Assembly: GCA_046563655.1 (NCBI GenBank) | Contig: CM102289.1 | Location: 7,502,001 to 7,566,000, forward strand | Origin: Yuukianura sp. NJ FZ-2021 | Lineage: Eukaryota | Reading direction: 5' to 3' | Length of the DNA: 64,000 bases | Shown: positions 41,094 to 64,000 of the stretch, piece by piece | How positions within the stretch are numbered: position 1 is the stretch's first letter | Layout: each line of letters opens with the position of its first letter | The notes under the pieces: generated by a model | The model's database searches: none | The model's input: only the letters and a program-made list of their open reading frames with translations | Told to the model about the DNA's origin: nothing | Made by a program: the position numbers and the translations under genes

Positions 41094-43848
41094 ATGCCGC
41101 GAGAGTGTCCGCCACCAGATCCGTGTGGACCAAAATGCTTTCCACTGTTTACACAAAACATTCCGAATCTGAACAGAAGCCATGTCCACGCCGACGCTTA
41201 CCAGGAAGATTGTCGCAACAAAATGGTTGATTATGACGAATGACAATTCACTTTTACTTTTTTCAAATTGGCTAAACTTGTTTTGTTTTAGGCTGGAGCT
41301 GGTGATACGGATCTGGTCAAACCTATTTGTGGCGGGTGTTACGACATTCCTGGAACTCATCAACGTAGCTGCGAATGTCAAGAATGCATTTGCAAACGAG
41401 AAGTAAGTTGAACGACAGACTTTTTAACAATTTATTTTTTTGGAAAAATTTGAATTTTGATTTTCCCGCTTTTCAGGCTGTTTTGGAAGAAGAATGTCCA
41501 CAACATACTGAAGGGAACCGCTGGCAAGATTTGGGTCGCAAATTTCGTGATCCCGATGTTCAAGCAATGTACGATCGTTTGAGCAGTTCTGAAGGAGCCA
41601 AAAGCAATCTGCGTTGGTGTCCAACTGATGAAGACCTTCCGTGTGTTTTGCGTCGATTTCGAAGTTCAAACACTGGCTACCTTGGACAAGCCAGAGTTCA
41701 TTACGGAGCTGCCCAGGACTGTGATTATCCAAAAGCCCTTGTCCATGGCGTAGTTGACTACGATATTACTTCGGTAAGGTCAAATGTCAAGGTCACTTCT
41801 ACTACTTGAGAAATTTACCCGGGTGATTCAAATTCCAGGGCGGGAAATTGATTAACCCTCCGCCCAAACCGTGGGTGCAACAATTGGAAACGGATTTGGC
41901 CGAAAGCATTTACGATTCGAACAAAACTGCTCCGATTGGATCTTCGCATGACCAACTTCTGAAACTCCCGGCGCATGTGCATCCGGACAAAACTATTTTT
42001 GGTGTCCCGACATCAAAAGGTTTGTGACTTCGGTGACCTCGTGACCTCAAACTCTGCTAACAAGCTTTGAATGTTCTAAACTGTTGTAAACAAAAATTTT
42101 TTTGAAATTTTTAGACGTAAAAGCCTCAGATTTGGTCAACCCGAAGAAAGACCGATTTTTTGTTGCCGCCGAATCTGATTGTTGTCATCCGCTATACCGG
42201 AAAACCCATTCCCATTACTATCCTGGCGAACAAGTCTGTCGAAAGTGAGAATTCAAAACTCTGAGAAATTCTGTTTCAAAGTGAAATTTAAAATTTTTTT
42301 TTCCAAGTTATGAAGCTCCGTTTAAGCGATCAGACACCTTTGGAGACTTGACTCCGCATGACATTGTTGGGCGTCCTTGTCGTCAAGTAATTTCAACTTG
42401 GCGCCAATGCATTCCAGATCCACCGGTCGTCTCAAAAGTTTACGCTGATCACGTAGATCAACGTATTCCCAAACTGGGAAAGGCGCAAGATCGAATCTGT
42501 GGTTTTCGTGATCGTGGGCCCAAGTAAGAACAACTTTAAAAAAGTTAAAAAAATTTGACAACATTACAAAATCTGAAAATTTGAAGCTTAAACAAAGTTT
42601 TGATTTTTTTTTACTTTTTAGTTACCTTTATGGCAAAATCACTCCAAAAGACCGTCCTGTTGATGAAATTGTGTTCAATCGTTGTCCAAATGAAGGAGCA
42701 GAAAAAGCTAAACGTCTTGTGCATAACTTAACTGAATGGGTTACAAAAGTGCGCCAGGATTTGAAATCTGATCGAGGAGCTGAACTGGAGTCGCTTTATG
42801 AAGCGTTTAAGGCTAATGACAAAGTAAGTTTTCAAAAAACTTGCCATAAATCAAAAATTTTCTGAAATTCTATTCCCTTTATACTCAGGACTGCAATGGA
42901 ACCATCGATTGGGAGTCGTTCATGCGCTGTCTCATTGAAGAAAGAGTTCCACGTACGCTCGAGCCGCTCGATTTCATTGAATCGCTTGCCTACATTGGAA
43001 TTTTCCATCCATCGCCCTGCAACGTTGTTGACTACAACTTGCTCATGGACTTCATCAAAGGACACAAAGAAGCTCAGTTTGCCTCCAAAGTTACAAGTGA
43101 GCAAACTTATGAAAAACAAAAACTGCGATTTTCAATATTCAAAAAAATTAAAAAATAAAAAGTTTTTGTAATGTTATTTCAAATTTTAGCTTTGAAGCCC
43201 TACTACCTTCCGCATACCAACAGTTGTATCCATTTTCGTACAACTTACTCCGATTTCGCCGCGAACAAATGTGTCCAGGAATCTTGTTTGCGTCGAGCCA
43301 AAGAAGAGCGGATCAACGGAATGCCGAGTATTCGCAAAGACAAAGTTCCCGCAAGGATCCGAAGTACAAAAGATACGACAAATTATGGTGACGATGGAGA
43401 TGCTTATAGTCTCATCTGGCCAAGCGTCTACACTGTCCGTGGAGTCACTGCAAGAGACGTGTTTAGTGTAAACCAAAGTTTTAATATTGAAATTCTTGAT
43501 TTTTCGAATTTTTTATTAACCTTGTTTTATTTTTTATTTTTTAAGCCCATGACTCAGGAGCAAATGAGACGCGTGTTGTGCAAAGCTGGAATCAACGTGA
43601 CTCATGAAATGATCAACTGCGCATGGGAGGAAGCGCTCAAAATGGATCCGGATGACAAAGGACGCGTTTGTTTCCAAAGTTTTCGAGAGGCTTTGGACAA
43701 AGTTCAAAAAGATCAACTGGATGCAATGGGCCTAACGTATGAAACGGAAATTCAAGACTGCTGTCCACCACCATCAAAAAACTGCATTCCACAGCCATGC
43801 AAAGAGGTCAAAGGTTACGGAAAACCGAATCCGTGCTATGGACCCTGA
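41094..43848 (+). CDS. EFHB: EF-hand domain-containing family member B (CFAP21)-like axonemal protein, multi-exon
   Basis: YDSNKTAPIGSSHDQ, FGVPT, LYRKTHSHYYPGEQ, TFGDLTPHD, GMPSIRKD, NYGDDGDAYSLIWPSVYTVRGV and C-terminal GRVCFQSFREALD. Confidence 0.8.
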
Positions 43849-44043
43849 AATCAAAAGTGCCAAAATGTCAACACTTCAAAACAGTAAAAATAAGCAACAA
43901 AAACTTTTTGAAAGACATTTCAACACACAAATTTGAAAAAAAAAGCTGAGAAAAAAAGTTTTACATAAAAAGTCATAACGCAATTCAATTTTCTTGGAGT
44001 GGGCAAGATTTTTTTTTTTGAAATTTAATGTTTTGAAATTTTT

Positions 44044-46456: not shown

Positions 46457-47767
46457 TTAGTTATAGCCGATGCTGTTTTGATCACCGTCAAAGTGTGACT
46501 GGCTGCCGATGTTATGGTTAAGAAGTGGCTCCCATGTTGTTCCGTAGTGCTGTGACTGCTGTCCTACTCCATATTCATAACCTGATTAAAATGATTAGAT
46601 TTAATTAAGAATAAAATTAGTTTAGATTTTAAATTTACCAAATCCCGGATTATGATGGTGAGGTGGCGGTGGTGGGGCATAGCCTCCGTGGCCACCTACA
46701 AATCCTTGACCATGTGACTGCTGGTGACCGAATCCGTGGAGCTCATTGATTGGTGCATACGAACTCGCATGCCCATGTGACTGTTGATGCCCGTAACCTT
46801 GGAAATGCTGTTGCTGGTGTCCATGAGGATTCATTTGGTAGCCTAGCCATTGGCTGTAAGGCTCCGGTTGGTGTCTGTGTCCTCCCCCTTGACCGTGACC
46901 GTGACCGTGACCTCGCTGCTGTTGAACATAACCGCCGTGTCCATGCCCATGACTCTGGGATTGGTGGAATCCGTGACCGTGGTTATGCACTTGCTGATAA
47001 CTTTGACCACCGTGACCGTGGCCGTGAGATACTGACGGCAGCCCGTATCCCGTTTGATGATGTCCATGACTTTGCCCGTGACCATGGCCGTGCGATACTG
47101 CCGGCAGTCCGTATCCCGTCTGATGATGTCCATGACTTTGTCCGTGACCATGGCCGTGCAATACTGGCGGCGGTCCGTGACCGTGGCCGTGCGATATTGG
47201 CGGCGGTCCGTATCCCGTTTGATGATGTGGATGACTTTGTCCGTGACCGTGACCGTGCGATACTGGCGGCGGTCCGTATGTCGTCTGATGATGTCCATGA
47301 CTATGTCCCTGAACATGGCCGTGCGATGCTAGCGGCAGTCCGTATCCAGTTTGATGATGTCCATGACTTTGTCCGTGACCGTGACCATGAGAAGACTGTT
47401 GCCCGTAACCTGGTTGTTGATGTCTGTGACCTCTGTGACCTTTCTGGTTTCCAAATCCAACTCCGTGTGAGGCATGCGCCGATTGAAGTCCAAGCCCATG
47501 ACCATACGCTAGGTGATGTCCTTTTCCATTTGGACTGTCCTGAATTCCGTATCCATTTGCACTGCCGTGACCTTTGCCATGTCCACCACCACCACCTTTG
47601 ACAGAATTGGACTGAGATCCATGCAGACCGTGGTGACCTGCCGCTGGGGTCAAATCATTCTTCTCTTCTTTTTCTTTCTCAGTCTTTTTTGGTTTTTGCT
47701 TTTCAGAAGGCGCAGACGCAGCAATTCCTAGCAGCGCTAATAACAGAATCAACTCCCTCACTTTCAT
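46457..47767 (-). CDS. Secreted His/Gly-rich repetitive protein (cuticle-like); probable short second exon ~46581-46457
   Basis: Signal peptide, DLTPAA spacer, and ~22-aa repeats HGHGHGQSHGHHQTGYG(L/P)P(P/A/S)VS. Donor TTTG|gtaaat and acceptor aatcag|GTTATG give GYEYGVGQ...IGYN*. Confidence 0.85.
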
Positions 47768-48989: not shown

Positions 48990-50556
48990 ATGAAGCCCAA
49001 CGAATTAGCAGTCATCGTTTTTTTATTTTCGGCAATATGTAGTGCGGCTGTACCACTTCAAACAATTTTTAGTCTAGGTAATATTTTTGAAAAAAAAATC
49101 ATACATACCTAAATATTTTGTTTTGAATTGAATTGAAGATTTTTTTAAGGTAAGCTCAATATCAACCCAGATACGGTGACAGTTTCTGGATTTTCTGCTG
49201 GATCTTCAATGGCTACCCAGTTTCATGTGGCACACTCTGCAACAATTAGCGGAGCAGCATTGTTTTCTCAAGGTTTACAAAATCCGAAGCGAAATTCTTC
49301 CAAAATTTGAAACCAAATTAAGTGATTTAAAATTTTGAATTCTACATTAGCTTACTACAGATGTGGTCCTACCTCCCTGATGACATTTGGAGTTCGGTGT
49401 AGTAACATGGCCTATGATTTATTTCCGTACAATGTTTGGAACGCAATAGCAGACGCAAAACGCTACTCCAATGAAGGTCTAATCGATAATTTCACGAATC
49501 TCAGGAGCAACCGAGTATTCATTTGGACTGGAGAAAAAGACGAGTATCTCTCACCAGGTATTTCCAGTATTCTAGTTAAACCTGCATCCGAAATTTAGTT
49601 TAGTGTTACAAACTAAAATTTTTGTTTCAAATTAGCAACTGTTGTCAAAAACAAAGACTTCTACAAAGCTTTTATCCAGAACCCGGGAATCAATATCAAA
49701 GTTACAGTTGCGAATGGAACCAAACACCTTTTTGTAAGTTGAGAATTTTAAAAGACATTTTGAAATTTGGAATTTTCCAAAAAATTGAGCTTAAATTATA
49801 AAAACATTATGTACTTTCAATGTTTTTTAAGCCGACAGATACTTACGGAGGTCCATGCGACCAAGATGCAGAACCAAATTTATATCTGGGAAACTGCAAC
49901 TATTCTGGTGCTGAGCATGCGCTGAGATTTCTACTGGGAGATATCAAAGGAGTGCCACTAGATCAAAAAGAAAATGGTAAATTTCTATTTTGTTTTCAAA
50001 AACAGATTTTTTATTAATTCGAAAGGTATTTATAATTTTAGAAAAATTTATTTCAAAATTCAGGTTCAAAGATTTTTGATGAGCGTCAGTTGATGCTATT
50101 TGACCAAACGGAGTTCTATGGCGGGAATGGCAGCATTTCAAAAATTGGGATGGGCACATTGGGCCACATTTATGTTCCTCGCGCATGCGCTTCAAACTCA
50201 ACGCAATGCCACCTCCATTTCCATTTCCATGGATGCAACGAATGGCCTCTTGACCTCGCTCGACCTTATGTACTCAACAATGGATTTCTACCAATTGCTG
50301 AACTTAACAATATCATCGTAGTTTTTCCATTGACTACTTCCATTGAAACGAACTACAATGGCTGTTGGGACTTTTTCTCTTATACCAACAGCAAATTCGG
50401 TAAAACCTCAAAAATAATTTATATATAAAAAGTTAATATGCACTAAACCAATTTCGATTAATTTTCCCACTTATTTTGTCAATTTTAGCAACCAAGGAAG
50501 GGGAGCAGATCAAAGTTATTTATGCCATGCTCCAACGGCTACTCAATGGTCTCTGA
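48990..50556 (+). CDS. Secreted PHB/PHA depolymerase-like alpha/beta hydrolase, copy 1 (7 exons)
   Basis: Signal peptide, VTVSGFSAGSSMATQFHVAHS (lipase box), VFIWTGEKD (Asp), KHLF|PTD (His), IYVPRAC..CHLHFHFHGC, NNIIVVFP, NGCWDF. Confidence 0.85.
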
Positions 50557-51223
50557 ATCTACTACTCTTAAAAGCAGCTCTTAAATTACTGCATTTTTGA
50601 AACTTAATTAATTAAATAATTATAAATAATTAAACTTAATTAAAGAACTTAATTAATTGCAGTTGGATAATTTAATTGTTGTGCTTACTATTTTTCATGA
50701 CGAAACAAGTAACCTGGAAAAAAGTATTGATCGGCTTTATTTGTCTAAAATTGAATTAAATTCGGAAGATTTGCTTAGAATTTGTTCTTAAAATTTGGGC
50801 CAATTAGTTGCAACACTACTGATGTTGAGATATACATTGTGCATAAATTGTGACCATACTGCAGCATGAAAGAAATTTTGAAGAAACTTGCTTTTAAAGT
50901 ATTTACATTTTTACAAATCGATTTGCTAAAGACCTCAATTGGCACAAATGATCTCTGAAGTGTCAAACCTGAAATTGAGACATTTTTAATCGTTTCTGTC
51001 GTTTTCCCTTTGTTAATTAATATGTCACAACCGTTCTTTATATTACATATGTTATTTCTGATCATTCGTGAACATAGGTGACATTCAGCATTACTTTTAG
51101 TATGCGACAGTCCTAGAAGCAGGGAACAAATTTGCGTCACCACTTTTGTAAATTGCAGTTCGTATCCTTCAGTTGAACATTTCGTTTTTCGAAAAACAAC
51201 AACGTTGTGAAAATTTGACGAGA

Positions 51224-52962
51224 ATGAAACACGGTGGAAAAGCAGCCGTTTTCTTTTTACTGCTGACACTGTGCAATGGGGCTAGACCAAAACAGTCAAT
51301 TTTTAGTCAATGTAAGATTTTTGAAAGAAAGCATTCTAATAAATAATTCCTTTTCTAAATTGAATTGAAGATTTTCTCATAAGGTAAGCTCAACATCAAT
51401 CCAGATACGGTGACAGTTTCTGGATTTTCTGCTGGAGCATCAATGGCAACCCAGTTTCATGTGGCACACTCTGCAGATATTAGCGGAGCAGCATTGTTTT
51501 CTTCAGGTTGCGAAAATTTGAAACAGAATTCTTCCCGCATCTGACACCAAATTCTGTGATTCCAAAATTTTGATTTTTGCATAGCTTACTACAGATGTGG
51601 TCCAAAATCTCTGATTACATTTGGCATTCGATGTAGCAACATGGCTTATGATTTGTTTCCGTATGATGTTCGTAATGCAATAGCAGACGCAAAACGCTAC
51701 TCAAAAGAAGGTGTCATTGACAATACATCCAATCTGAAAACCGACAGAGTATTCATTTGGGCTGCAGAAAAAGACGAGTTTTTCTCGCCATGTACGCACT
51801 CTTTCATATACATTTGGTGTATAACAATTTAGTTCACCAGTTAAACTTGAAAGTTTTGCTTCAAATTTTTAGCGACTGTTGGCAAAAACAAAAACTTTTA
51901 TCGAGCTTTCATCCAGAATCCTGGAATCAACATTAAAGCAACATTGGCGAAAGGAGCCAAGCACGTTTTCGTAAGTTTGAAAATTTTGTATTACAAATCA
52001 AAATCAGAATCTCCTTTCCTTTCTTTGCTGGTTGAAATTTTCAAAAAAAAGATTGATTGATTGATTGATTGATTGATTTATTTACCACTGGTATCCTGCA
52101 TTGCAGGTAATTACACCGTGGATGGTAAATTGAGTAATTGTTACAGCTACTAGCATATTATATTCGTGATTAGCATTAGGTTTCCGTTGAAAAGTAGTTT
52201 ACATTGCGAATAAAGATAAAAAAAAATTTCAAAATTTTATTTTAAGCCGACAGACAGATACCGGAGCACGTGCATACGACATCCTGAACTTAATTTAAAC
52301 TTAGGAAACAGTAACTATTCTGGAGCTGAGCATGCGCTGAGATTTCTACTTGGAGATATCAAAGGAGTGCCACTAGATCATAAAGACAAAGGTCACTGTT
52401 CAGTTTTTACTAATTTTTGAGTTCAAAACTTCAAAAAAGATTTCTAACACGTGTGATTTGAAGTGCAGTGTACAACATTTTTGATGAGCGTCAGTTGATG
52501 CTATTTGACCAAACGGAGTTCTATCGTAGGAAGGGAAGCATCTCAAAAATTGGAATGGGCACATTGGGCTACATTTATGTTCCTCGCGCATGCGCCTCAA
52601 ATTCAACCCAGTGTCACCTCCATTTCCATTTCCATGCATGTTACGAATATCCTCTTGACGTCGCTCGACCTTGTTTACTCAACACTGGACTTCTACCAAT
52701 TGCTGAACTTAACAATATCATCGTAGTTTTTCCACTGACTACTGCTATTGAAACGAACTACAATGGCTGTTGGGACTTTTTCTCTTATACCAACAGCAAA
52801 TTTGGTAAAAACCTCAAAAATAATTTATATACAACAGGTTAATATGAACTAAACCAAATTCGATTAATTTTCCCACTTATTTTGTGAATTTTAGCAACCA
52901 AGGAAGGAGAACAGATCAAAGTTATCTACGCCATGCTCCAACGGCTACTCAATGGGCTCTGA
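51224..52962 (+). CDS. PHB/PHA depolymerase-like, copy 2
   Basis: Same 7-exon structure with GFSAG, WAAEKD and KHVF|PTD. HGC is changed to HAC. Confidence 0.82.
52051..52215 (-). mobile_element. Short insertion with (GATT)n tract in an intron of copy 2; probable retroelement 3' end
   Basis: Absent from the equivalent intron of copies 3 and 4. (GATT)7 at one end and AAAGAT on both flanks. Confidence 0.55.
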
Positions 52963-53616
52963 ATCTACTACTCTTAAAAGTAGCTCTTGAATTACTGCAT
53001 TTTTTAAAACTCAATTAATTTTACTTCTATAATTTAATTGTTATGCTTAACATTTTTCATGATGAAACAAGTAACCTGGAAAAAGTATCGATCGGCTTTA
53101 TTTTTCTAAAATTCAATTTGGAAGATTTGCTTAGAATTTGTTCTTATAATTTGAGCGAATTGTTGAACAATACTGATGTTGCAATATAAATTGTGCATAA
53201 ATCCTGACACTACTGCAGCATGAAAGAATTGCATCCTAATGCATCTTATTGCATCTTAACGTATTTTGAGAAAACTTGCTTTTAAAGTGTTTACAGTTTC
53301 ACAAATCGATTTGCTAAAAAAAACTCAATTGGCACAAATGATCTCTGAAGTATCAAACCTGAAATTGCGACATTTTTAATGGTTTCTGTCGTTTTCCATA
53401 CGTTAATTAACATGTCACAACCGTTCTTAGTTAAATTACATATGTTATTTCTGATCATTCGTGAACATAGGTGACATTCAGCATTACTTTTAGTATGCGA
53501 CAGTCCTAGAAGCAGGGAACAAATTAGCGTCACCACTTTTGAAAATTGCAGTCAGTATCCTTCAGTTGAACTTTTCGTTTTTCGAAAAACAACAACGTTG
53601 TGCAAATTTGACGAGA

Positions 53617-55248
53617 ATGAAACACAGTGGAAAAGCAGCCGTTTTCTTTTTACTGTCAACACTGTGCAGCGGGGCTATACCAAAACAATCAATTTTTAGT
53701 CTATGTAAGATTTTTGAAAGAAAGCGTTTTCATCAATATTTTACTTTTTCGATTGAATTGAAGATTTTCTTTCAAGGTAAGTTCAACATCAATCCGACTA
53801 CGGTGACAGTTTCTGGATTTTCTGCTGGATCCTCAATGGCAACCCAGTTTCATGTGGCACACTCTGCAAAAATTAGCGGAGCAGCATTGTTTTCTCAAGG
53901 TTGCAGAAATTTGAAACATCATGAAACCAAATTTTGTGACTCTAGAAATTTGAAATTTTTCATCAGCGTACTACAGATGTGGTCCTACATCATTGATTAC
54001 ATTCGGAATTCGTTGTACCAACAAGGCTTATGATTTGTTTCCGTATAATGTTCGAACTGCAATAAGAGATGCAAAACGCTACTCAAAAGAAGGTGCCATT
54101 GACAACACAACCAATCTAAGAACCGATAGAGTATTCATTTGGACTGGAGAAAAAGACGAGTATTTTTCGCCATGTACGCATGATTTCATATACTTTTAGT
54201 GTATAAAAATTTAGTTAATCAGTTAAACTTGAAATTTGTGCTTCAAATTTCTAGCGACTGTTGGCAAAAACAAAATCTTTTATCGAGCTTTCATCCAAAA
54301 TCCTGGAATCAACATTAAAGCAACATTGGCGAGAGGAACCAAACATATTTTCGTAAGTTGGAAATTTTGCACTGCAAATCAAAATCAGAATTTCCTTTCT
54401 TTGCTGGTTGAAATTTTCAAAACAAAGATAATTCAAATTTTCAAAATTTTATTTTAAGCCAACAAACAATTTTGGAGGTTCATGCAGACCACATCCTGAA
54501 CTTAAGTTATACTTAGGAAACTGCAACTATTCTGGTGCTGAACATGCGATGAGGTTTCTACTTGGAGATATCAAAGGAGTGCCACAACATCAAAAAAACA
54601 AAGGTCAATGTTCAGTTTTTACTAATTTTTGAGCTCAAAAATGAATTTATCCTAATCAAAAAGCAAAGGGTTGGTGTTCATTTTTACTGATTTTTGAATT
54701 TTAAAAAAATTGTTTTTAAAGTATATTTTGAAAAACAGCATTCAAAATTTTTGATGAGCGTCAGTTGATGCTATTTGACCAAACGGAGTTCTATCGTGGG
54801 AAGGGAAGCATCGCAAAAATTGGGATGGGCACATTGGGCCATATTTATGTTCCTCGCGCATGCGCTTCAAACTCAACGCAATGCCACCTCCATTTCCATT
54901 TCCATGGATGTTACGAATATCCTCTTGACATCGCTCGACCTTATGCCCTCAACAATGGATTTCTACCAATTGCTGAACTTAACAATATCATCGTAGTTTT
55001 TCCACTGACTACTTCCATTGCAACGAACTACAACGGTTGTTGGGACTTTTTCTCTTATACCAACAGCAAATTTGGTAAAAATATAAAAAACGAACTTTTA
55101 CCAGAATATAATTAGTTTGAAAGGTTTATGGTATCTAAACCAATTTCGATTAATTTTTTGAATTATTTTGTCAATTTTAGCAACGAAGGAAGGAGAACAG
55201 ATCAAAGTTATTTACGCAATGCTCCAACGCCTACTCAATGGCCTCTGA
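53617..55248 (+). CDS. PHB/PHA depolymerase-like, copy 3
   Basis: Same exon structure with GFSAG, WTGEKD, KHIF|PTN, HFHGC and NGCWDF. Confidence 0.85.
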
Positions 55249-55830
55249 ATCTTACTCTTAAAAGTAGCTCTTGAACTACTGCGTTTCTGAAATTTTAATT
55301 GCTTTTACTTGGTTGATTTTAATTGTTAAGCTTGTTGAAACAAGTAGGTAAATACGTCAATAAAGTTAGTATTTTTCAAGTTCTTGCGAAAAATGGCAAA
55401 ATTTCAATATCCGAAGTGTATTGTAATATTCAACCTTCTAAACCAACCATAAGGGATTTTCCAAATATAACTTTTCAAAATAAAAATAGATTTCGAAAGA
55501 CTGGTTTTCATGAAGTTCTAAAAAGTGTGTAATTTACAACAAAAGGCGAGAAGAAAATTATGAGTTGGAACAAAACCTTAGCCTTTTGTCAAAAATTACC
55601 TGAGTACGAGCATAGTTTTAGAAAAGTTGTGAAACTTATACATAGATAAATCGTTCTGAGAATTAGTGTTAGCAATCTGAAAATACAGAAATTTCCAGTT
55701 CTGTGGCCGCCGCTCATTTTCTTGCTTCTATTTTTTTAGTTTAGTGTTTCAGAAAAAGTTTGACAGAAGAACCATAAGTTTGAAGAAGTTTACAAGAACA
55801 ATCCCATTTACAACAAAAATCTTGGTGGCA

Positions 55831-57804
55831 ATGTCGCCACTTTTGAAAACGTTTCTACTAGCTACTTGTCTTCGGTTTTTTAGTTCATGTGAGGCAGTTA
55901 GTGGTGGAAATGATGCACGTAAGTTAATTGAAATTAAAATTAATTTAAGTAATTACTAATTAGAACTAACTAATGACTTTATTAACTTGCTTCTGTTCAT
56001 AGGCGAAGAGGAACTTCTCTCTCCTGATTGTGTCAATCCTTTGGGAGAATATGGCTACTGCTTCGCACTGATCAAATGTCGCAGTCTCTTTCAAATTTTG
56101 AAACAGAAACCTATGAATCATCAATCACTTCAGTTTTTACAAAAATCAAGTTGCGGATTTGCTGAACGCCGTATGCCTAAAGTATGTTGCGTTGATGAAG
56201 ACGACATTGAGGGTTGGCGATCTTCAAATGTCAAGGTCACTCAAGGTCACGCCGAAACTCCTGAGGTCACGCCACCACCTCCAACGACAACTACAACTAC
56301 TACGACTACCACTACCACTACAACGACAACACCAAAGCCATTGCCAGTTATTCCATTTCAAGCGGCTACAAATTCCAGTGCAACGCTTCCAGTTGCTTAT
56401 AGTCTTAGCACAATGATGAAAAGACGTATCCGACGTCATCCCTATTTTAGGCTCCTCCCTACGACAGACATTTGTGGTTTGTCTATTACTACGGAAGATC
56501 GGATAATCGGAGGAAGAGCGGCAGAACTCGGAGAATTTCCATGGATGGGATTGATAGCTTACAGTATGTGCTGCCAATTGAAGTAGCTTTAAGTTAATTA
56601 ATTGAAATCTTTAATTAAAATAATAGAGTTTAACTGACTTTGGCTTTTCTCAGGTGACCCCGAAGGAGGAGAACCACAGTTTGCTTGTGGTGCAAGTTTG
56701 ATTTCAACGTTGTACGCTGTGACAGCAGCTCATTGTGTCAAACAATTGCCGAAAGGATTCAAAATGCAGGAGGAAAATTTAAATTTTTCTATTGGTTTTT
56801 TGAAAAAGAGAATTTTGACCTGTGTTTTCTTTATGTGTAGTGTTTTCGTGCGGTTTGGTGAGTACGACCAAGCTCACTCGGAAGTGGATTGCGTCGACGA
56901 CTTCTGCGCAGATCCGGTTCAGGACATTGAAGTTGAAGAGGTCATTGCGCATGAAAACTATGATGTCACAGGGAAGAAAGAAAATGACATTGCACTTCTG
57001 CGGCTCAAACATGCAGTCAAACTTGGAAGTAAGGAATCTTTAATATTTTTAAGTTAACATTTTATTATAATTTTTGGTTTGAATTGCTAGCTTTTGCTAG
57101 TCCAATTTGTCTTCCATTTGCACTGGACCTAAAGTCAGGAGATGGATCTTTAGAAACAATTTCAAAACTCACGGCAGCTGGATGGGGACGCACAGTTTTT
57201 GGTAAGCTGTTCCAAAATTTTGGAAAAAATAAAGTAAAATTTCAAAAACTTTGATTTTTTTTTTCAAAATTAGATGAACCAGACATGGCTTCGATACTTC
57301 AAACTGTGAGGATTCCATTAGTTTCAAAAGCGGAATGCAACGAATACTACACAACTAAGGTCAAACTGAGTGGCATTGATGATTCAAGGGTAACAAATTT
57401 TTTTTCTAAAGATTTGAAAAAATTGTCAAGCATCAAACGTCTTAGCTAATTTGGCTTGAAGTCAATTTTTGATTTTATTTTCAAGTTTTGTGCCGGTGGG
57501 GAAGAAGGAATTGACAGTTGCAGAGGAGACAGCGGGTAAACATTTTTGTCAATTTTTACCAAAATTTTGCAGGAAACAAATTTGGAAGAAACTAAATTTT
57601 TGAACATATTTACGCAGGGGACCATTGATGGAGGCCCTGCCAATTCCTGATCCAAACAATCCCAATTCCCCGCCAATTGTTCGAACTTTTCAATTTGGTG
57701 TTGTGTCGCTTGGACCATCGCGATGTGGCACCAAGGACCAACCAGGACTCTACACCAAAATTAGCAACTATCTCATTTGGATTCTGGATAACATTCGCCC
57801 ATGA
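55831..57804 (+). CDS. CLIP-domain serine protease (easter/PAP-like)
   Basis: Signal peptide, CLIP CVNP..GYC..LIKC..SSCG..KVCC, Thr-rich linker, activation site EDR|IIGG, and TAAHC, NDIALL, GDSG|GPL. Confidence 0.92.
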
Positions 57805-58085
57805 CATTCCCAATTTTAATATTTTACTTCAAACTATTCATTTTTTCGTAGTGTAAGTTTATTTTAAATTTTGCCTTCTTCAATTTTTTATAAGTCATGA
57901 GATTTGGAAAATTAAATAAAAATCTCATCATGATTTTATTTAATCTCTTAAGAAAAATCTCTTAAAAAAACCTCATCATGATAACAAAAATTTAACAACA
58001 ATTACCAATGTGAGCTCCTACATTGATTATTGAAACGCTTGTCGTACGCAAGTCCATCCAAAGTAACAAGAGGAAGGAAGTTTTG

Positions 58086-58560
58086 AAATTGGCTTTATAA
58101 AAATGTCATAATTTTGAAAACTAATATTTGCATGGCTTTCCAATCCATTGCTTACAAATCATGTGTGACCCAATTTCGCCTACAACATTTACCGGAGCAT
58201 TTGAAGATGGAATTATTTGGAAAACTGGATGCATCGATTACTCTCAAATTTTGAATTCCAACAACTCGGAAGTTGGAATCTGTCACTCTTAACTGTTTCC
58301 CATTGGACAAGTACAACATGGATGATACCTATTTCACCAACAAACAAATAAAACGAAAATTTTGACAAAAAAAAATCTGTTTTTGAAATTCCTTACAAAT
58401 TCAAGGTGAGGTGTCTCAATAGCACTCCCAATACTGGTCACTTCCAAATTTTAAATTGGCACAAGAACCCAATGGCATAGAATGTAATTTTCCACCAAGT
58501 TTTTTGAACGCTTTTGTCGAAGTTATCAACTTTAGTCCAAAGATTCCTGTAAAATCCAAA
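58086..58560 (-). pseudogene. Degenerate duplicate of the 3' end of the GMC oxidoreductase
   Basis: Aligns to 61481-61978 with several deletions. No upstream exons. Confidence 0.88.
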
Positions 58561-58567
58561 CGACAGT

Positions 58568-58900
58568 TGGCCTCTTGACCTCGCTCGACCTTGTGTACTC
58601 AACAATGGATTTCTACCAATTGCTGAACGTAACAATAACATCATCGTAGTTTTTCCATTGACGACTTCCATTGAAACGAACTACAATGGCTGTTGGGACT
58701 TTTTCTCTTATACCAACAGCAAATTTGGTAAAAACCTCCAAAATAATTTATCTACAAAAAGTTTAAAATGTGAATATGACCTGAATCAATTTGGATTAAT
58801 TTTTCCTACTATTTTGTCAATTGTAGCAACCAAGGAAGGAGAACAGATCAAAGTTATTTACGCAATGCTCCAACGGCTACTCAACTCAATGGTCTCTGAA
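58568..58900 (+). pseudogene. 3' fragment of a PHB depolymerase-like gene
   Basis: Begins mid-exon 6 (WPLDLARP...) with no 5' exons. A 5-bp duplication (ctcaactcaa) shifts frame before the normal stop. Confidence 0.88.
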
Positions 58901-59604
58901 TCTACTCAGACAAGACAAGTAGCTCCTGAATTACTGCATTTACAAAAAGTTAATTACTTGTACGTGATTAATTTTCATTGTTACGACTACTACTTTTCAT
59001 GATGAAACAAGTATCCTCAAAAAGTGTTTTTCAGCATTACAAAAAATGTAAAAATGTCATAACACGAAATGCATATTCACCTTTCCAACCTACCTTAATG
59101 GATTGTCAAATTTCCGAAAACTTATGCTTAACTTAAATCAGCTTTGCCTTTATGAGATTGAATTCGGAAAATTTGCAATGTCGCTTATCGAATTTGGGCG
59201 AATTGTTGTGACACTTTTGATGTTGTGATATAAATTGTGTGTAAATTGTGACACTATTATTGTAGCGAAGATCATATTTTGAGGGAACGTGTTTTTAAGT
59301 TGTGTACCTTCTCACAGTCGATTTGATAAAAAAAACAGAACTGACACAAATGATCTTTGCATTTTCAAACTTGAAGTTGAGACATTTTTAATTGTTTATA
59401 ACTTCGCAATCGTTCCTAATTAATTGACATGTTTCTGATCATTCGTGAACATAGGTGACATTCAGTACTACTTTCAGTACATGTGACACAGTCCTAGAAA
59501 CCAAGAGAAAATTAGCTTCACGACTTTTGAAAATTACAGTGCGTCTCCTCAAATTCAACTTTTTGTTTTTCGAAAAGCGCCAACGTTGTTCAAATTTGCC
59601 AAGA

Positions 59605-61189
59605 ATGAAACACAGTGGAACAGCGGCCATTTTGTTCTTATTGCCAACACTATGCATTGGGGCTAGACCAAAAGAGTCAATTTTTAGTCTATGTAAGATT
59701 TTTGAAAGAAAGCATTCTCATAAATATTTTCTTTTTTAAATTGAATTGAAGATTTTCTTATAAGGTAAGCTCAACATCAACCCAGATACGGTGACAGTTT
59801 CTGGATTTTCTGCTGGAGCATCAATGGCTACCCAGTTTCATGTGGCACACTCTGCAAAAATTAGCGGAGCAGCATTGTTCTCTTCAGGTTGAAAAAATCT
59901 GAAACAAAATTCTTCTAGAATTTGATATCAAATTCTATGATTCCCAAATTTTGATTTTTGCATAGCTTACTACAGATGTGGTCCAAAATCTCTGATTTCA
60001 TTTGGAGTTCGATGTACCAACAGGGCTTATGATTTGTTTCCCTATAATGTTCGAACTACAATACGAGATGCAAAACGCTACTCCAAGGAAGGTTCCATTG
60101 ACAATACTAGCAACATGAAAACCGATAGAGTATTCATTTGGAGTGGAGAAAAAGACGAGTTTTTCTCGCCATGTACGCACTATTTCATATACTTAGTGTA
60201 TAAAAACATAATTCATCAGTTAAACTTGAAATTTCTTACTCAAATTTTTAGCAACTGTTGGCAAAAATATAAAATTTTATCGAGCTTTCATTCAGAATCC
60301 TGGGATCAACATTAAGGCAATATTGGCGAAAGGAGCCAAACACCTTTTCGTAAGTTCCAAAATTTTGCATTGCAAATCAAAATCAGAACTTCCTTTATTT
60401 GCTGCTTGAAATTTTCAAAGAAAAAAAATGATACAAATTTTTAAAATTCTATTTTAAGCCGACAGACAGTTTCGGGAGTTCATGTAGATCACATCCTGAA
60501 CTGAATATATACTTAGGAAACTGCAACTATTCTGGTGCTGAGCATGCGCTGAGGTTTCTACTTGGAGATATCAAAGGAGTGCCACGAAATCAAAAAGCAA
60601 AGGGTTGGTGTTCATTTTTACTAATTTTTGAATTTGAAAAATAATTTTTTTAAATGTATATTTTGAAAAACAGCATTCAAAATTTTTGATGAGCGTCAGT
60701 TGATGCTATTTGACCAAACGGAGTTCTATCGTGGGAAGGGAAGCATCGCAAAAATTGGAATGGGCACATTGGGCCACATTTATGTTCCTCGCGCATGCGC
60801 CTCAAACTCAACCAAGTGTCACCTCCATTTCCATTTCCTTGCACGTCAAACATATCACCTTGACCTCACTCGACTTTATGTACTCAACTATGGATTTCTA
60901 CCAATTGCTGAACTTAACAACATCATCGTAGTTTTTCCATTGACTACTTCCATCGAAACGAACTTCAATGGCTGTTGGGACTTTTTCTCTTATACAAACA
61001 GCAAATTTGGTAAAAATAGAAGAAAAAAAAACGAACTTTTACTAAAATATAATTAGTTTTAAAAGTTTATGTGATCTAAACCAACTTCGATTAATTTTTT
61101 GATTTATTTTGTCAATTTTAGCAACCAAGGAAGGAGAACAGATCAAAGTTATTTACGCAATGCTCCAACGGCTACTCAATGGTCTCTGA
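59605..61189 (+). CDS. PHB/PHA depolymerase-like, copy 4
   Basis: Same exon structure with GFSAG, WSGEKD and KHLF|PTD. The HGC region is replaced by LARQTYHL. Confidence 0.82.
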
Positions 61190-61516
61190 ATCTACTACTC
61201 TTAAAAACAGCTCTTGAATTACTGCATTTCTAAAAACTTAATTCCTTTTTACTTGCTTAATTATAATTGATAACCTTACTATTTTTTGTGTTCAAGCAAG
61301 TAAATACCTCAATAAAGTTACTATTTTTCAAGTTTTGCGAAAAATGGCAAAATTTTGAAACGCGAAATTTGTTAAACTTTCTTCCAAAACAATAACAGGT
61401 TTTTCCAAATATAACTTTAGAAAATAAAATTAGGTTTCAGAAACTGTTTTATGTAGTGCTAAAAAGTGTGTAATTTAAAAGAAATTGGCGTTATAAAAAT
61501 GTTATAACTTTGACAA

Positions 61517-63989
61517 CTAATATTTGCATGGCTTTCCAATCCATTGCTTACAAATCATGTGTGACCCAATTTCGCCTACAAGATTTACCGGAGCATTTAA
61601 ATTTGATGATGGAATATTTGGAAAACTGGATGCATCGATTACTCTCAAATTTTGAATTCCAACAACTCGGAAATTGGAGTCTGTCACTCTTCCAGGATCC
61701 GAACTGTTTCCCATTGGACAAGTACAACACGGATGATACCTATTTCAACAAAAGCAAATTAAAACCAAAATTTTGAAACAAAAAAGTTGTCGTTTTTGAA
61801 ATTTCATACAAAGTCAAGGTGAGGTGTCTCAGATAGCACTCCCAATACTGGTCGCTGTTAAATTTTAAACTGGCACAAGGATCCAGTGGTACAGAATGTA
61901 ACTTTCCGCCAAGTTTTTTGAACGCTTTCGTCGAAGTTATCAACTTTACTCCAAATTTGATTCCTGAAAAAATCCAAACAAAAGTTTCAGAATTTGAAAA
62001 AAAAAGATATTTTTTTTCAACTAACCTTCCACTGAAGCCTCCACATCTTCCCTGTTTTGCAAATACTTTGGATCTATTCTTGGTTTGACCTCTGGATCTG
62101 GACTGATCAAGGTCACTTCTCCGCGTTGTCTTGGTCGTGCATTGATCATAAAAATTTGAAAAGTGTTAAGTCCAGCAGTACTTTTCCACAGATTTTGAAT
62201 CGTCGCCGGGTGAACATTGAGAGTATCTAAAAATGATTCGTACGCCATAGGTTGCGAAATTGCAACTACAGTCAGTTGGAGATCGGGCCATTGCTCTTGT
62301 TTCGAAAATTTTGAGCAAACTGAACCAACTGATTTGACAAAACTTGAAGTGAGACTGCCCGTTCCTTGGGTTAAATACTGAGTCAAAGTGTTTATATTGA
62401 AGTCACTTTGAAATGAAGTTGTTATGGGTTTGTCAACAGAAAACATTCCAACAATCGTTCCAACATGGTCTTGCAAATTTTGTCCTACCGGGAGATCAGC
62501 CACAAGAGGAATCTGTTTTTCAAAAATTCGAAAAAAAAAATCTAAATTTTAGTCAATTTTATTATTTTATTTGACAGTTACAAACTTACTCCCAAGTTTT
62601 TCAATTGTTGTCTCGGTCCGATTCCGGAAAGTATCAAAAGCTGCGGTGAATTTATAGCCCCAGCGGAAACAATTACTTCTTTTGACGCGTATGCTCTACG
62701 CAAGGCGCCATGACGTATATACTCTACTCCATATGCTCGTCTGCTTTTATCTATCAAAATCTGGCAAAAAAAAGTTCAAAAATTTCAAAAAAAAAACTTT
62801 TTATAAAACTTTATTTTTAATAATTTTCTAGCGCATTACCCGTACTACTTTGGAAAATTTGTAAACACTAAGCCGATGATAAGGTGAATTTTTTGCAGGT
62901 TTTAGAAACGCCGCAAAATCTTCATATCGCACTCCTCTCCTTGTTGTAAAGGTAAGAGGCATGAATCCTACATTATCAAATACAAATTTTCAAAAAAAGC
63001 TAAATTTTTTTTTGAAACATTTTGTTTAACTTACCGTTGATATGATATGAATTTAAATCTGCCTCTGGATATCCAAGTTCTTGCCCCGCTTCAACAAAGG
63101 CGTTACGAAGTTCAAAATCATCAAAATTATTTTCAACAAACTGCTCGCCGCCGTGGCCGTGGTTTGGATCTAAAACGAAAATTTTGAACATGCGTGAAGT
63201 TTTAGATCCAATGACATCGTTTTTTCTTTTTTCAAAATTTTGAAAACTTTGAACTTACTGTAGTCATTGAAATCTTCAAATCCTTTGTAAAAATTTTCAA
63301 CACTTTTGTAGCTCCAAATTGGATTTTGTAACCTAGCAGCCATAGAATCAAAGTCTTTTGGATTTCCTCTCAAGTAAATCATTGCATTCAGGTTACTACT
63401 TCCACCTTCCGCTTTCCCTCGAGGCCAGTTGCTTTTCTAAAAAAAAAAATTCTTGTTAGCAATTTCAAACTTTTTTTTAAATAGTTTTCAAAGGTAAACA
63501 CAAGTTAAAATTTTGATTAAAGTAACTCCTTACTCTATCAACAAGACCCAAGCAAGCATTTCTTTGTGGAACAGTTTGATATGCCCAATCTATAGTTTCG
63601 TCTTTCTGAAACGGAAAAGCCATAAGTGGCACAGCAGTCAGAGGATTAGGCTGCCCACCGGCTTCCAAAACAAGAACTTTGAATCTTCTGGACAACCGAT
63701 TGGCCAAAACTGATCCAGAAGATCCTGAACCAACTATGACAAAAAACATTTAAAAAAATATTAATTAGCAATGTCTAATATATTATATGTAATTGTAATC
63801 AAATTCAAAATTACCAATTATAAAGTCAAAGTAGGATTCAGAATTGTATCCTCCAGCGGAAGAAACAAAATCCCGACTTCTGTCAAAGTCACTGTACTGC
63901 TGAACAAAAAGTGCCAACGTTGCTAAAGCTCCGTATGCGGCTATATTTAAAACATTTGTAGTTAGAAGCGGAAGACCAATAGCAGACAT
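61517..63989 (-). CDS. GMC oxidoreductase (glucose dehydrogenase-like), multi-exon
   Basis: [20 protein letters not shown] (FAD binding), [58 protein letters not shown]. Confidence 0.93.
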
Positions 63990-64000
63990 TTTCTGCTAGT

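What the first reader, a model, noticed from the sequence alone, without database searches (positions are those of the whole stretch)
48990..61189. Tandem array of intron-containing, secreted PHB/PHA-depolymerase-like genes in an animal
Seen: four complete 7-exon paralogs plus a fragment, each complete copy with a signal peptide, an N-terminal G-F-S-A-G lipase box, Asp (GEKD/AEKD), His (KHxF|PTD), and later HGC-type and GCWDF motifs. Known: this Ser-Asp-His-then-HGC order matches the circularly permuted extracellular PHB depolymerase type described from Penicillium/Talaromyces funiculosum and bacteria. I recall animal homologs being reported, so the family may not be new to animals. Inference: a microbe-eating soil arthropod has expanded enzymes to digest the carbon-storage polyester of its prey.
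Basis: partly seen in the sequence, partly recalled or inferred. Interest (0 to 1): 0.8.

Follow-up and report, generated by a model that had tools for sequence, protein, structure and literature searches.

The report
Springtail polyester-esterase gene cluster, diverging copies
A springtail carries four side-by-side genes of an enzyme family already shown in 2026 to digest bacterial storage polyester in animals; one copy looks ancestral, while three have become strongly positively charged and two have lost near-invariant active-site or disulfide residues.

Summary
Observation confirmed with one correction. There are four intact 7-exon genes (354 aa each, 77-85% identical) plus a 5'-truncated pseudogene. 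All keep Ser45-Asp134-His170, but HGC is intact only in copies 1 and 3; copy 2 has HAC and copy 4 LAR.

They belong to the type-2 PHB depolymerase family. Exon 6 hits PDB 2d80/2d81 (E 1.8e-13), and a springtail orthologue used as stand-in folds onto 2d81 (Z 41.6).

The family is known in animals: Zeidler et al. 2026 list 14 Folsomia candida homologues and assayed two as active. This scan noted another family gene in the same genome.

New here: the array is a lineage-specific expansion of a springtail orthogroup absent from that paper's Supplementary Table 2, with Trp307 replaced by Phe. Copy 1 is near-ancestral. Copies 2-4 evolved faster and turned cationic (pI 8.8-9.5 vs 6.1). Copy 4 has a cluster of changes in the oxyanion loop.

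Activity and expression are untested. PHB hydrolysis by copies 1 and 3 is likely (about 0.65); changed function of the derived copies is possible (about 0.25).

The parts
48990..50556 (+). Copy 1: 7-exon type-2 PHA-depolymerase-family gene (exons 48990-49077, 49150-49272, 49351-49557, 49636-49733, 49832-49976, 50064-50399, 50489-50556); triad and HGC intact; near-ancestral; pI 6.1
   Evidence: branch 0.0085; private pN/pS 0.23
51224..52962 (+). Copy 2: intact frame and triad; HGC to HAC, Cys194 to Ser, new Cys289; pI 8.8
   Evidence: Gly277 and Cys194 are 160 of 160 in homologues; private pN/pS 0.65, not distinguishable from neutral (p 0.20)
53617..55248 (+). Copy 3: intact frame, triad and HGC; cationic (pI 9.4)
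   Evidence: private pN/pS 0.20, p 3e-5 against neutral
55544..58084 (.). About 2.5-kb segment inserted into the duplicated 3' flank (empty site near 61481-61484 behind copy 4); carries the CLIP protease gene
   Evidence: self-BLAST: 54654-55543 matches 60588-61484 and 58085-58568 matches 61481-61986; junctions
55831..57804 (+). Intron-containing CLIP-domain trypsin-like serine protease gene, apparently intact; probably a passenger
   Evidence: Pfam CLIP 1.6e-13, Trypsin 6.2e-12; ORFs; no second copy found by DNA search of its 5' kb
58085..58568 (-). Duplicated 3' end of the neighbouring GMC oxidoreductase gene (fragment)
   Evidence: 87.6% identical to 61481-61986; Pfam GMC_oxred_C 9.4e-8
58568..58899 (+). 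Pseudogene fragment of the depolymerase gene (exon 6 from about codon 280, exon 7 frameshifted), joined to the GMC piece at a 3-nt microhomology
59605..61189 (+). Copy 4: intact frame and triad; oxyanion-loop motif HGC replaced by LAR within a cluster of amino-acid changes; most cationic (pI 9.5)
   Evidence: (9 of 23 private missense changes in one 21-codon window, scan p 0.0004)

Best explanation
This is a lineage-specific tandem expansion of an ancient, vertically inherited springtail gene of the type-2 (circularly permuted, Penicillium funiculosum-like) PHA depolymerase family. Shown: gene structure, Ser-Asp-His triad, family and fold (fold on an orthologue stand-in), monophyly of the four copies, asymmetric evolution. 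Inferred: the proteins are secreted, probably into the gut. Ser45 attacks ester bonds of poly(3-hydroxybutyrate) released from lysed bacteria, with His170/Asp134 as base and main-chain amides of residues 46 and 278 as oxyanion hole, giving 3-hydroxybutyrate. Copy 1 keeps the ancestral enzyme and copy 3 is a cationic active variant. Copies 2 and 4 are under relaxed constraint, with reduced or altered activity. Unequal crossing-over built the array and left the GMC/depolymerase fragment as a scar.
For: Exon 6 of copy 1 hits only PHB depolymerases in the PDB (2d80/2d81 E 1.8e-13). Four of six scanned copy-1 coding exons map collinearly on NCBIfam NF050059 e_dPHAscl_type2 (profile 4-40, 45-107, 141-177, 185-287); exons 4 and 7 gave no hit. 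AlphaFold model of orthologue P0003 (pLDDT 91.8): 2d81 Foldseek E 1.1e-28, next family 1e-4; VIA Z 41.6, rmsd 1.8 over 297 residues, next Z 11.5. Triad S45/D134/H170 aligns with fungal S39/D121/H155 (residues from PMC9878459 and PMC5445757 passages). Whole-gene dN/dS is 0.22-0.50 in 6 of 6 pairs. The intron before the P-T/S-x motif is shared with 6 of 6 other family loci in the genome. Tree: array 100/100, sister to Orchesella and Folsomia orthologues 99/93. Two F. candida family members were active on PHB (PMC13642032).
Against: No assay or expression data for these genes. The closest orthologues (Ocin01_06416; F. candida LOC110854330/A0A226DZ99) are not among the 14 Folsomia and 9 Orchesella rows of the paper's Supplementary Table 2, so this orthogroup was probably not assayed; later tables were unreadable. 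All four copies and their orthologues have Phe at the fungal Trp307 position (W in 122 of 160 homologues, F in 26) and lack the Gln after HGCx (Q in 130 of 160). Orthologues score 238 and 224 bits on NF050059, below its cut-off of 280. The sister clade consists mostly of springtail proteins lacking catalytic Asp and His, so this branch of the family is prone to functional change.
Confidence: 0.65

Rival explanations
1. Neofunctionalisation of copies 2-4: after duplication they were selected for positive surface charge and a remodelled oxyanion/substrate loop. They became cationic proteins that bind anionic microbial surfaces or polymers, or esterases with a new substrate, while copy 1 kept the old job.
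For: Net charge: copy 1 -4, four named orthologues -5 to +2, copies 2-4 +6, +14, +15. Charge-changing differences from copy 1 run toward positive 16:4, 19:1, 21:3 (sign p 0.012, 4e-5, 3e-4; not independent, shared stem). Copies 3 and 4 have the highest pI of 163 domains (median 5.9). Relative-rate tests favour faster change in copies 2-4 (p 0.002-0.14 over 9 tests). Copy 4 changes cluster in residues 268-288 (scan p 0.0004) while triad and frame stay intact. Precedent: active acetyl xylan esterase AoAxeB uses an Arg main-chain amide in its oxyanion hole and lacks the family's active-site disulfide (PMC12103068 passages).
Against: No whole-gene dN/dS exceeds 1. The copy-4 loop versus rest contrast is not significant (9:1 vs 14:11, Fisher p 0.11), the window was chosen after looking, and the scan null is uniform. 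At several of the 13 K/R-gain sites some orthologues also carry K/R, so polarity is not clean. Copy 3 is cationic yet catalytically intact, which also fits simple tuning to gut pH or substrate surface.
Confidence: 0.25
2. Copies 2 and 4 are simply decaying, redundant duplicates (early pseudogenes) in a birth-and-death array, with only copies 1 and 3 functional.
For: Private pN/pS 0.65 and 0.59, not different from neutral (p 0.20, 0.10), against 0.23 and 0.20 for copies 1 and 3. They lose residues conserved in 158-160 of 160 homologues. A dead fragment lies in the same array.
Against: Both keep an open 354-codon frame, 6 of 6 GT-AG introns, the signal-like N-terminus, the triad and conserved upstream DNA, at dS 0.18-0.26 from their sisters. 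Codons 321-354 show no missense change in any pair, although gene conversion could explain that. The copy-4 changes are clustered, not scattered.
Confidence: 0.35
3. The whole orthogroup, copy 1 included, is not a PHA depolymerase in vivo but a related secreted esterase acting on other dietary esters (fungal or plant wall acetyl/feruloyl esters, lipids).
For: Orthogroup-specific changes at the substrate crevice (Trp307 to Phe, Gln to Glu after HGCx, PQ to PL). Acetyl xylan esterases are the next structural neighbours after PHB-hydrolysing enzymes (Z 9.2, 8.5). Below the NF050059 cut-off.
Against: The structural match to 2d81 (Z 41.6) stands far above any other esterase. Phe at the Trp307 position occurs in 26 of 160 homologues, including protist ones. 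All five animal family members assayed in PMC13642032 degraded PHB.
Confidence: 0.2
4. Recent horizontal transfer from a fungus or bacterium, or contamination.
For: The only close solved relative is fungal; springtails are known for horizontally acquired genes (recalled).
Against: Six spliceosomal introns per gene; one intron position shared with 6 of 6 distant paralogues on four contigs; flanked by animal genes; nested among springtail proteins. PMC13642032 places animal enzymes in one clade with protists (weak support, 43.8%).
Confidence: 0.03

Closest known systems
Animal PHA depolymerases (PHADs) of Zeidler et al. 2026, Nat Ecol Evol (PMC13642032), including up to 14 homologues in Folsomia candida, two assayed active
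   Same: Intron-containing, signal-peptide-bearing, single-domain type-2 enzymes with lipase box before the oxyanion hole; multi-copy in springtails; proposed digestion of microbial PHA.
   Different: This orthogroup is not in the readable Supplementary Table 2. The main text has no occurrence of 'tandem' and reports conserved triad and oxyanion hole, whereas copies 2 and 4 alter the HGC motif and copies 2-4 are unusually cationic.
Penicillium (Talaromyces) funiculosum PHB depolymerase, PDB 2d80/2d81
   Same: Fold (Z 41.6 on the orthologue model), Ser-Asp-His order, C-terminal HGC and GCWD motifs, no separate substrate-binding domain.
   Different: About 24% identity (orthologue model); Trp307 replaced by Phe in all copies; Cys250 replaced by Arg in copy 4.
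Orchesella cincta Ocin01_06416, an O. dallaii protein and F. candida LOC110854330 (uncharacterised orthologues)
   Same: Sister group (99/93); share HGCNEW, PLTT and GCWDF with copy 1; 47-51% identity to copy 1.
   Different: One gene per species in the searches made, against four plus a fragment here; near-neutral net charge.
NCBIfam NF050059 e_dPHAscl_type2
   Same: Best family for every exon that hit.
   Different: Full-length orthologues score 224-238 bits, below the curated cut-off of 280; the library is curated for prokaryotic genomes.

Membership tests
Type-2 extracellular scl-PHA depolymerase (2d81-like; animal PHADs) | Lipase box G-x1-S-x2-G with hydrophobic x1 near the N-terminus | tested here: met
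   GFSAG in 4 of 4 copies; definition from PMC2666664 passages
Type-2 extracellular scl-PHA depolymerase (2d81-like; animal PHADs) | Catalytic triad Ser-Asp-His aligned with S39/D121/H155 | tested here: met
   S45/D134/H170 in 4 of 4 copies; mapped through the orthologue alignment to 2d80
Type-2 extracellular scl-PHA depolymerase (2d81-like; animal PHADs) | Oxyanion-hole His-Gly-Cys C-terminal to the triad (copies 1 and 3) | tested here: met
   HGC at 276-278 in copies 1 and 3
Type-2 extracellular scl-PHA depolymerase (2d81-like; animal PHADs) | Oxyanion-hole His-Gly-Cys (copies 2 and 4) | tested here: not met
   Copy 2 HAC (His and Cys kept, invariant Gly lost); copy 4 LAR. They are family members by descent; enzyme status is open.
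Type-2 extracellular scl-PHA depolymerase (2d81-like; animal PHADs) | Circularly permuted alpha/beta-hydrolase fold of 2d81 | tested here: met
   Tested on the stand-in orthologue P0003 (47% identical to copy 1), not on the window's own spliced proteins: Z 41.6, rmsd 1.8; Foldseek E 1.1e-28
Type-2 extracellular scl-PHA depolymerase (2d81-like; animal PHADs) | Secretion signal | tested here: inconclusive
   Hydrophobic N-terminal stretch in 4 of 4 copies; no signal-peptide predictor available
Type-2 extracellular scl-PHA depolymerase (2d81-like; animal PHADs) | Substrate-recognising Trp307 of the fungal enzyme | tested here: not met
   Phe324 in 4 of 4 copies and in the orthologues; W in 122, F in 26 of 160 homologues. 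A feature of the fungal structure, not universal in the family.
Type-2 extracellular scl-PHA depolymerase (2d81-like; animal PHADs) | Hydrolysis of PHB to 3-hydroxybutyrate | not testable with these tools
   Needs recombinant assay; shown for two other F. candida homologues whose accessions I could not see (PMC13642032)
NCBIfam NF050059 (curated cut-off 280 bits) | Whole-protein score above cut-off | tested here: inconclusive
   The window's spliced proteins were not scanned whole; single exons cannot reach the cut-off; orthologues score 238 and 224 bits
Acetyl xylan / feruloyl esterases and type-1 PHB depolymerases (Esterase_phb) | [quoted passage not shown] | tested here: not met
   Order is reversed; matches cover at most 160 residues at Z 11.5 or less

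The most novel reading that the evidence does not exclude
After tandem duplication, a springtail polyester depolymerase lineage was selected for positive charge and a rebuilt oxyanion loop. This gave cationic proteins (copy 4 with Leu-Ala-Arg in place of His-Gly-Cys but an intact triad) that bind or attack microbial surfaces or a non-PHB polyester, a digestive-to-defence or substrate switch in a family thought to do one job. The analogy to eosinophil cationic protein is recalled; I saw only a search listing.
Probability: 0.22. Interest if true: 0.62.

Novelty: new member of a known kind. Interest (0 to 1): 0.32.

Why it matters
The headline (animals encode PHB depolymerases; springtails have many) was published with assays in 2026, so it is no longer a surprise. 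What the locus adds is a natural series of four paralogues, 77-85% identical, that differ in the oxyanion loop, one disulfide and surface charge. It makes the paper's untested idea, that multiple animal isoforms serve different polyesters, directly testable. It also warns that counts of 'PHAD homologues' in springtails include proteins with broken catalytic motifs.

Tried and rejected
Expression: the look-up of sequencing runs on copy 4 listed no RNA holder, so no reads were laid; this says nothing for or against expression.
Pfam gave no family for exon 6 and only sub-threshold abhydrolase hits, so it was uninformative.
The window's own spliced proteins were not found in the protein collection, so the fold was tested on an orthologue.
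No ancestral reconstruction was obtained, so the direction of the charge shift rests on extant orthologues and branch lengths.
Compensated frameshift or conversion from the GMC junction as source of the copy-4 loop: sequences are collinear without shift and do not match the junction; rejected by eye.
Assembly artefact: rejected, since copies are 83-90% identical.
Source copy of the CLIP protease insertion: none found with its 5' kb (one 65-nt hit only).
Literature searches for springtail, cationic or pseudoenzyme depolymerases returned only PMC13642032 as relevant. The library lacks most subscription papers. That paper's Supplementary Text (too large), Tables 5-9 (file cut) and FASTA files could not be read and may discuss these points.
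Sequence look-up among earlier scan notes found nothing.
Full report
1. Observation. The interval holds four complete + strand genes at 48990-50556, 51224-52962, 53617-55248 and 59605-61189. Each has seven exons of 88, 123, 207, 98, 145, 336 and 68 nt, GT-AG introns of 67-276 nt and an open frame of 354 codons. One search gave 2-8 open splice combinations per copy; I kept the one with equal exon sizes across copies. The alternatives differ by two residues at loop positions, except one copy-2 option next to the catalytic His. Proteins are 77-85% and coding DNA 83-90% identical. A fifth, dead fragment at about 58568-58899 starts just after the HGC motif and is frameshifted in exon 7. All four copies have GFSAG (Ser45), Asp134, His170 and GCWDF. 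The HGC motif is intact only in copies 1 and 3: copy 2 has HAC and copy 4 LAR. A hydrophobic N-terminal stretch suggests a signal peptide in all four (no predictor was available).

2. Locus anatomy. Self-comparison shows that the 3' flank of copy 3 continues, after a 2.5-kb insertion (55544-58084), into a duplicate of the 3' end of the GMC oxidoreductase gene that follows copy 4 (58085-58568, 87.6% identical to 61481-61986). This joins the depolymerase fragment at a 3-nt microhomology. The insertion carries an apparently intact CLIP-domain serine protease gene (55831-57804). This is the pattern expected from unequal crossing-over in a tandem array (inference). Elsewhere in the 98.7-Mb genome, exon searches find six more family loci on four contigs, each as a single gene-sized match (lower bound). 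So the genome has at least ten gene-sized members, and this is the only cluster seen. All 6 of 6 share the phase-0 intron before the P-T/S-x motif with copy 1, which points to an old, vertically inherited gene.

3. Family. Exon 6 of copy 1 matches the Penicillium funiculosum PHB depolymerase (2d80/2d81, E 1.8e-13), and exon 6 of copy 4 still does (6.1e-10). Four of six scanned copy-1 exons map in order along NCBIfam NF050059 (type-2 extracellular scl-PHA depolymerase); exons 4 and 7 gave no hit. The nearest database proteins are Orchesella cincta Ocin01_06416 and Folsomia candida LOC110854330. I folded the O. cincta protein as stand-in (117-sequence alignment, pLDDT 91.8). Its best matches are 2d81/2d80 by Foldseek (E 1e-28 and 2e-27; next 1e-4) and 2d81 by VIA-align (Z 41.6, rmsd 1.8, 297 residues; next 11.5). 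In a 30-row ML tree (26 of about 160 homologues, picked from the neighbourhood found plus outgroups), the four copies form one clade (100/100), sister to the Orchesella and Folsomia orthologues (99/93). They sit inside a 19-row clade whose named members are all springtails. The host is therefore most likely a springtail (inference from homology).

4. What is known. Zeidler et al. 2026 (PMC13642032) report 195 PHADs in 66 animal species, up to 14 in F. candida, and show PHB and PHB/PHV degradation by enzymes of Olavius, a sponge, an earthworm and two of F. candida. I read the abstract, Main, Results, Conclusions and two Methods sections, and read or searched the held part of one supplementary workbook. 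The 14 Folsomia and 9 Orchesella rows of its Supplementary Table 2 do not include the orthologues of this array. The workbook was cut after Table 4 and the Supplementary Text was unreadable, so I cannot say which proteins were assayed. Fungal residues (S39-D121-H155, oxyanion amides of S40 and C250, W307) come from passages of two reviews; I did not read Hisano 2006. Family definitions come from passages of PMC2666664; passages of PMC3741128 add only that triad mutants of a type-1 enzyme are inactive.

5. Divergence among copies. Against 160 homologues (P0008 left out as partial; four near-identical Stentor rows included), His276, Gly277, Cys278 and Cys194 are conserved in 159, 160, 158 and 160. 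Copy 2 changes Gly277 and Cys194; copy 4 changes all of 276-278. Cys278 probably pairs with Cys321; this is inferred from cysteine conservation and from the active-site disulfide described for Esterase_phb proteins (PMC12103068 passages). Whole-gene dN/dS is 0.22-0.50. Changes private to copies 1 and 3 show purifying selection (pN/pS 0.23, 0.20); those of copies 2 and 4 do not differ from neutral (0.65, p 0.20; 0.59, p 0.10). Copy 1 has a branch of 0.0085 against 0.12 for the stem of copies 2-4. Relative-rate tests agree in 7 of 9 cases at p below 0.05. Net charge is -4 in copy 1, -5 to +2 in four orthologues, and +6, +14, +15 in copies 2-4. Charge-changing differences run toward positive 16:4, 19:1 and 21:3 (these share a stem and are not independent). 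Copies 3 and 4 have the two highest pI values of 163 domains. Nine of copy 4's 23 private missense changes fall in residues 268-288 (scan p 0.0004 under a uniform null), but loop versus rest is not significant for the missense/silent ratio (Fisher p 0.11). Some orthologues carry K/R at several of the 13 gain sites, so not every gain is cleanly derived.

6. Mechanism and rivals. Most likely (0.65): secreted serine hydrolases, with copies 1 and 3 cleaving PHB from digested bacteria to 3-hydroxybutyrate and copies 2 and 4 weakened or altered. Against this, the whole orthogroup has Phe for the fungal Trp307 and Glu for the Gln after HGCx, scores below the NF050059 cut-off, and has no assayed member that I could identify. 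For copies 2 and 4, plain decay (0.35) and neofunctionalisation (0.25) both remain; these odds concern those copies and overlap with the main reading. The oxyanion hole uses main-chain amides, and AoAxeB is active with Arg at the corresponding role and without the disulfide, so copy 4 need not be dead. A non-PHA substrate for the whole orthogroup gets 0.2; recent transfer or contamination 0.03.

7. Verdict. Real, correctly assigned, and largely anticipated by a 2026 paper: a new member of a known kind. The asymmetric, cationic divergence and the HGC-to-LAR copy are not described in the papers my searches returned and make a neat test series, but they rest on four sequences without expression or activity data. 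Interest 0.32; most novel reading 0.22 probable, 0.62 if true.

Noticed in passing
Database proteins P0007, P0012, P0013, P0015, P0017, P0018, P0023, P0073; loci L008 (G000:C2:8901130-8904276) and L009 (G000:C1:6520786-6523908): A clade of PHAD-like proteins, springtail where named, lacks catalytic Asp and His but keeps HGC and GCWD (8 of 160 homologues; 100/99 in the tree). L008 shows the same losses and L009 also has Asn at the nucleophile. Two of them (Ocin01_12393, Ocin01_05489) are listed as PHADs in Zeidler Supplementary Table 2, so that list includes probable pseudoenzymes.
   Followed up: partly
P0105 (Orchesella dallaii CAL8116690.1): A PHA depolymerase domain fused to a C-terminal chitin-binding peritrophin-A domain (CBM_14, E 7.8e-9), suggesting anchoring to the gut peritrophic matrix.
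   Followed up: partly
window 55544-58084: An intact intron-containing CLIP serine protease gene with a Thr-rich linker sits as an insertion in one duplicate unit; no source copy found.
   Followed up: partly
window about 61518-64000 (- strand): GMC oxidoreductase (glucose-dehydrogenase-like) gene running off the window end; its 3' end is duplicated at 58085-58568.
   Followed up: partly
window about 46500-47600 (- strand): Low-complexity His/Gly/Gln-rich repeat-coding gene with units of about 66 nt (self-matches), cuticle-protein-like by recall; not tested.
   Followed up: no
window 41095-43850 (+ strand): Multi-exon gene with Pro/Cys-rich N-terminus and an EF-hand-like stretch near 42890-43050, possibly EFHB-like (recalled, not tested).
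   Followed up: no
copies 2-4, end of exon 1: With the consensus GTAAGA donor, copies 2-4 gain an extra Cys30 absent from copy 1; an unpaired cysteine could allow dimers. It depends on the splice choice.
   Followed up: no
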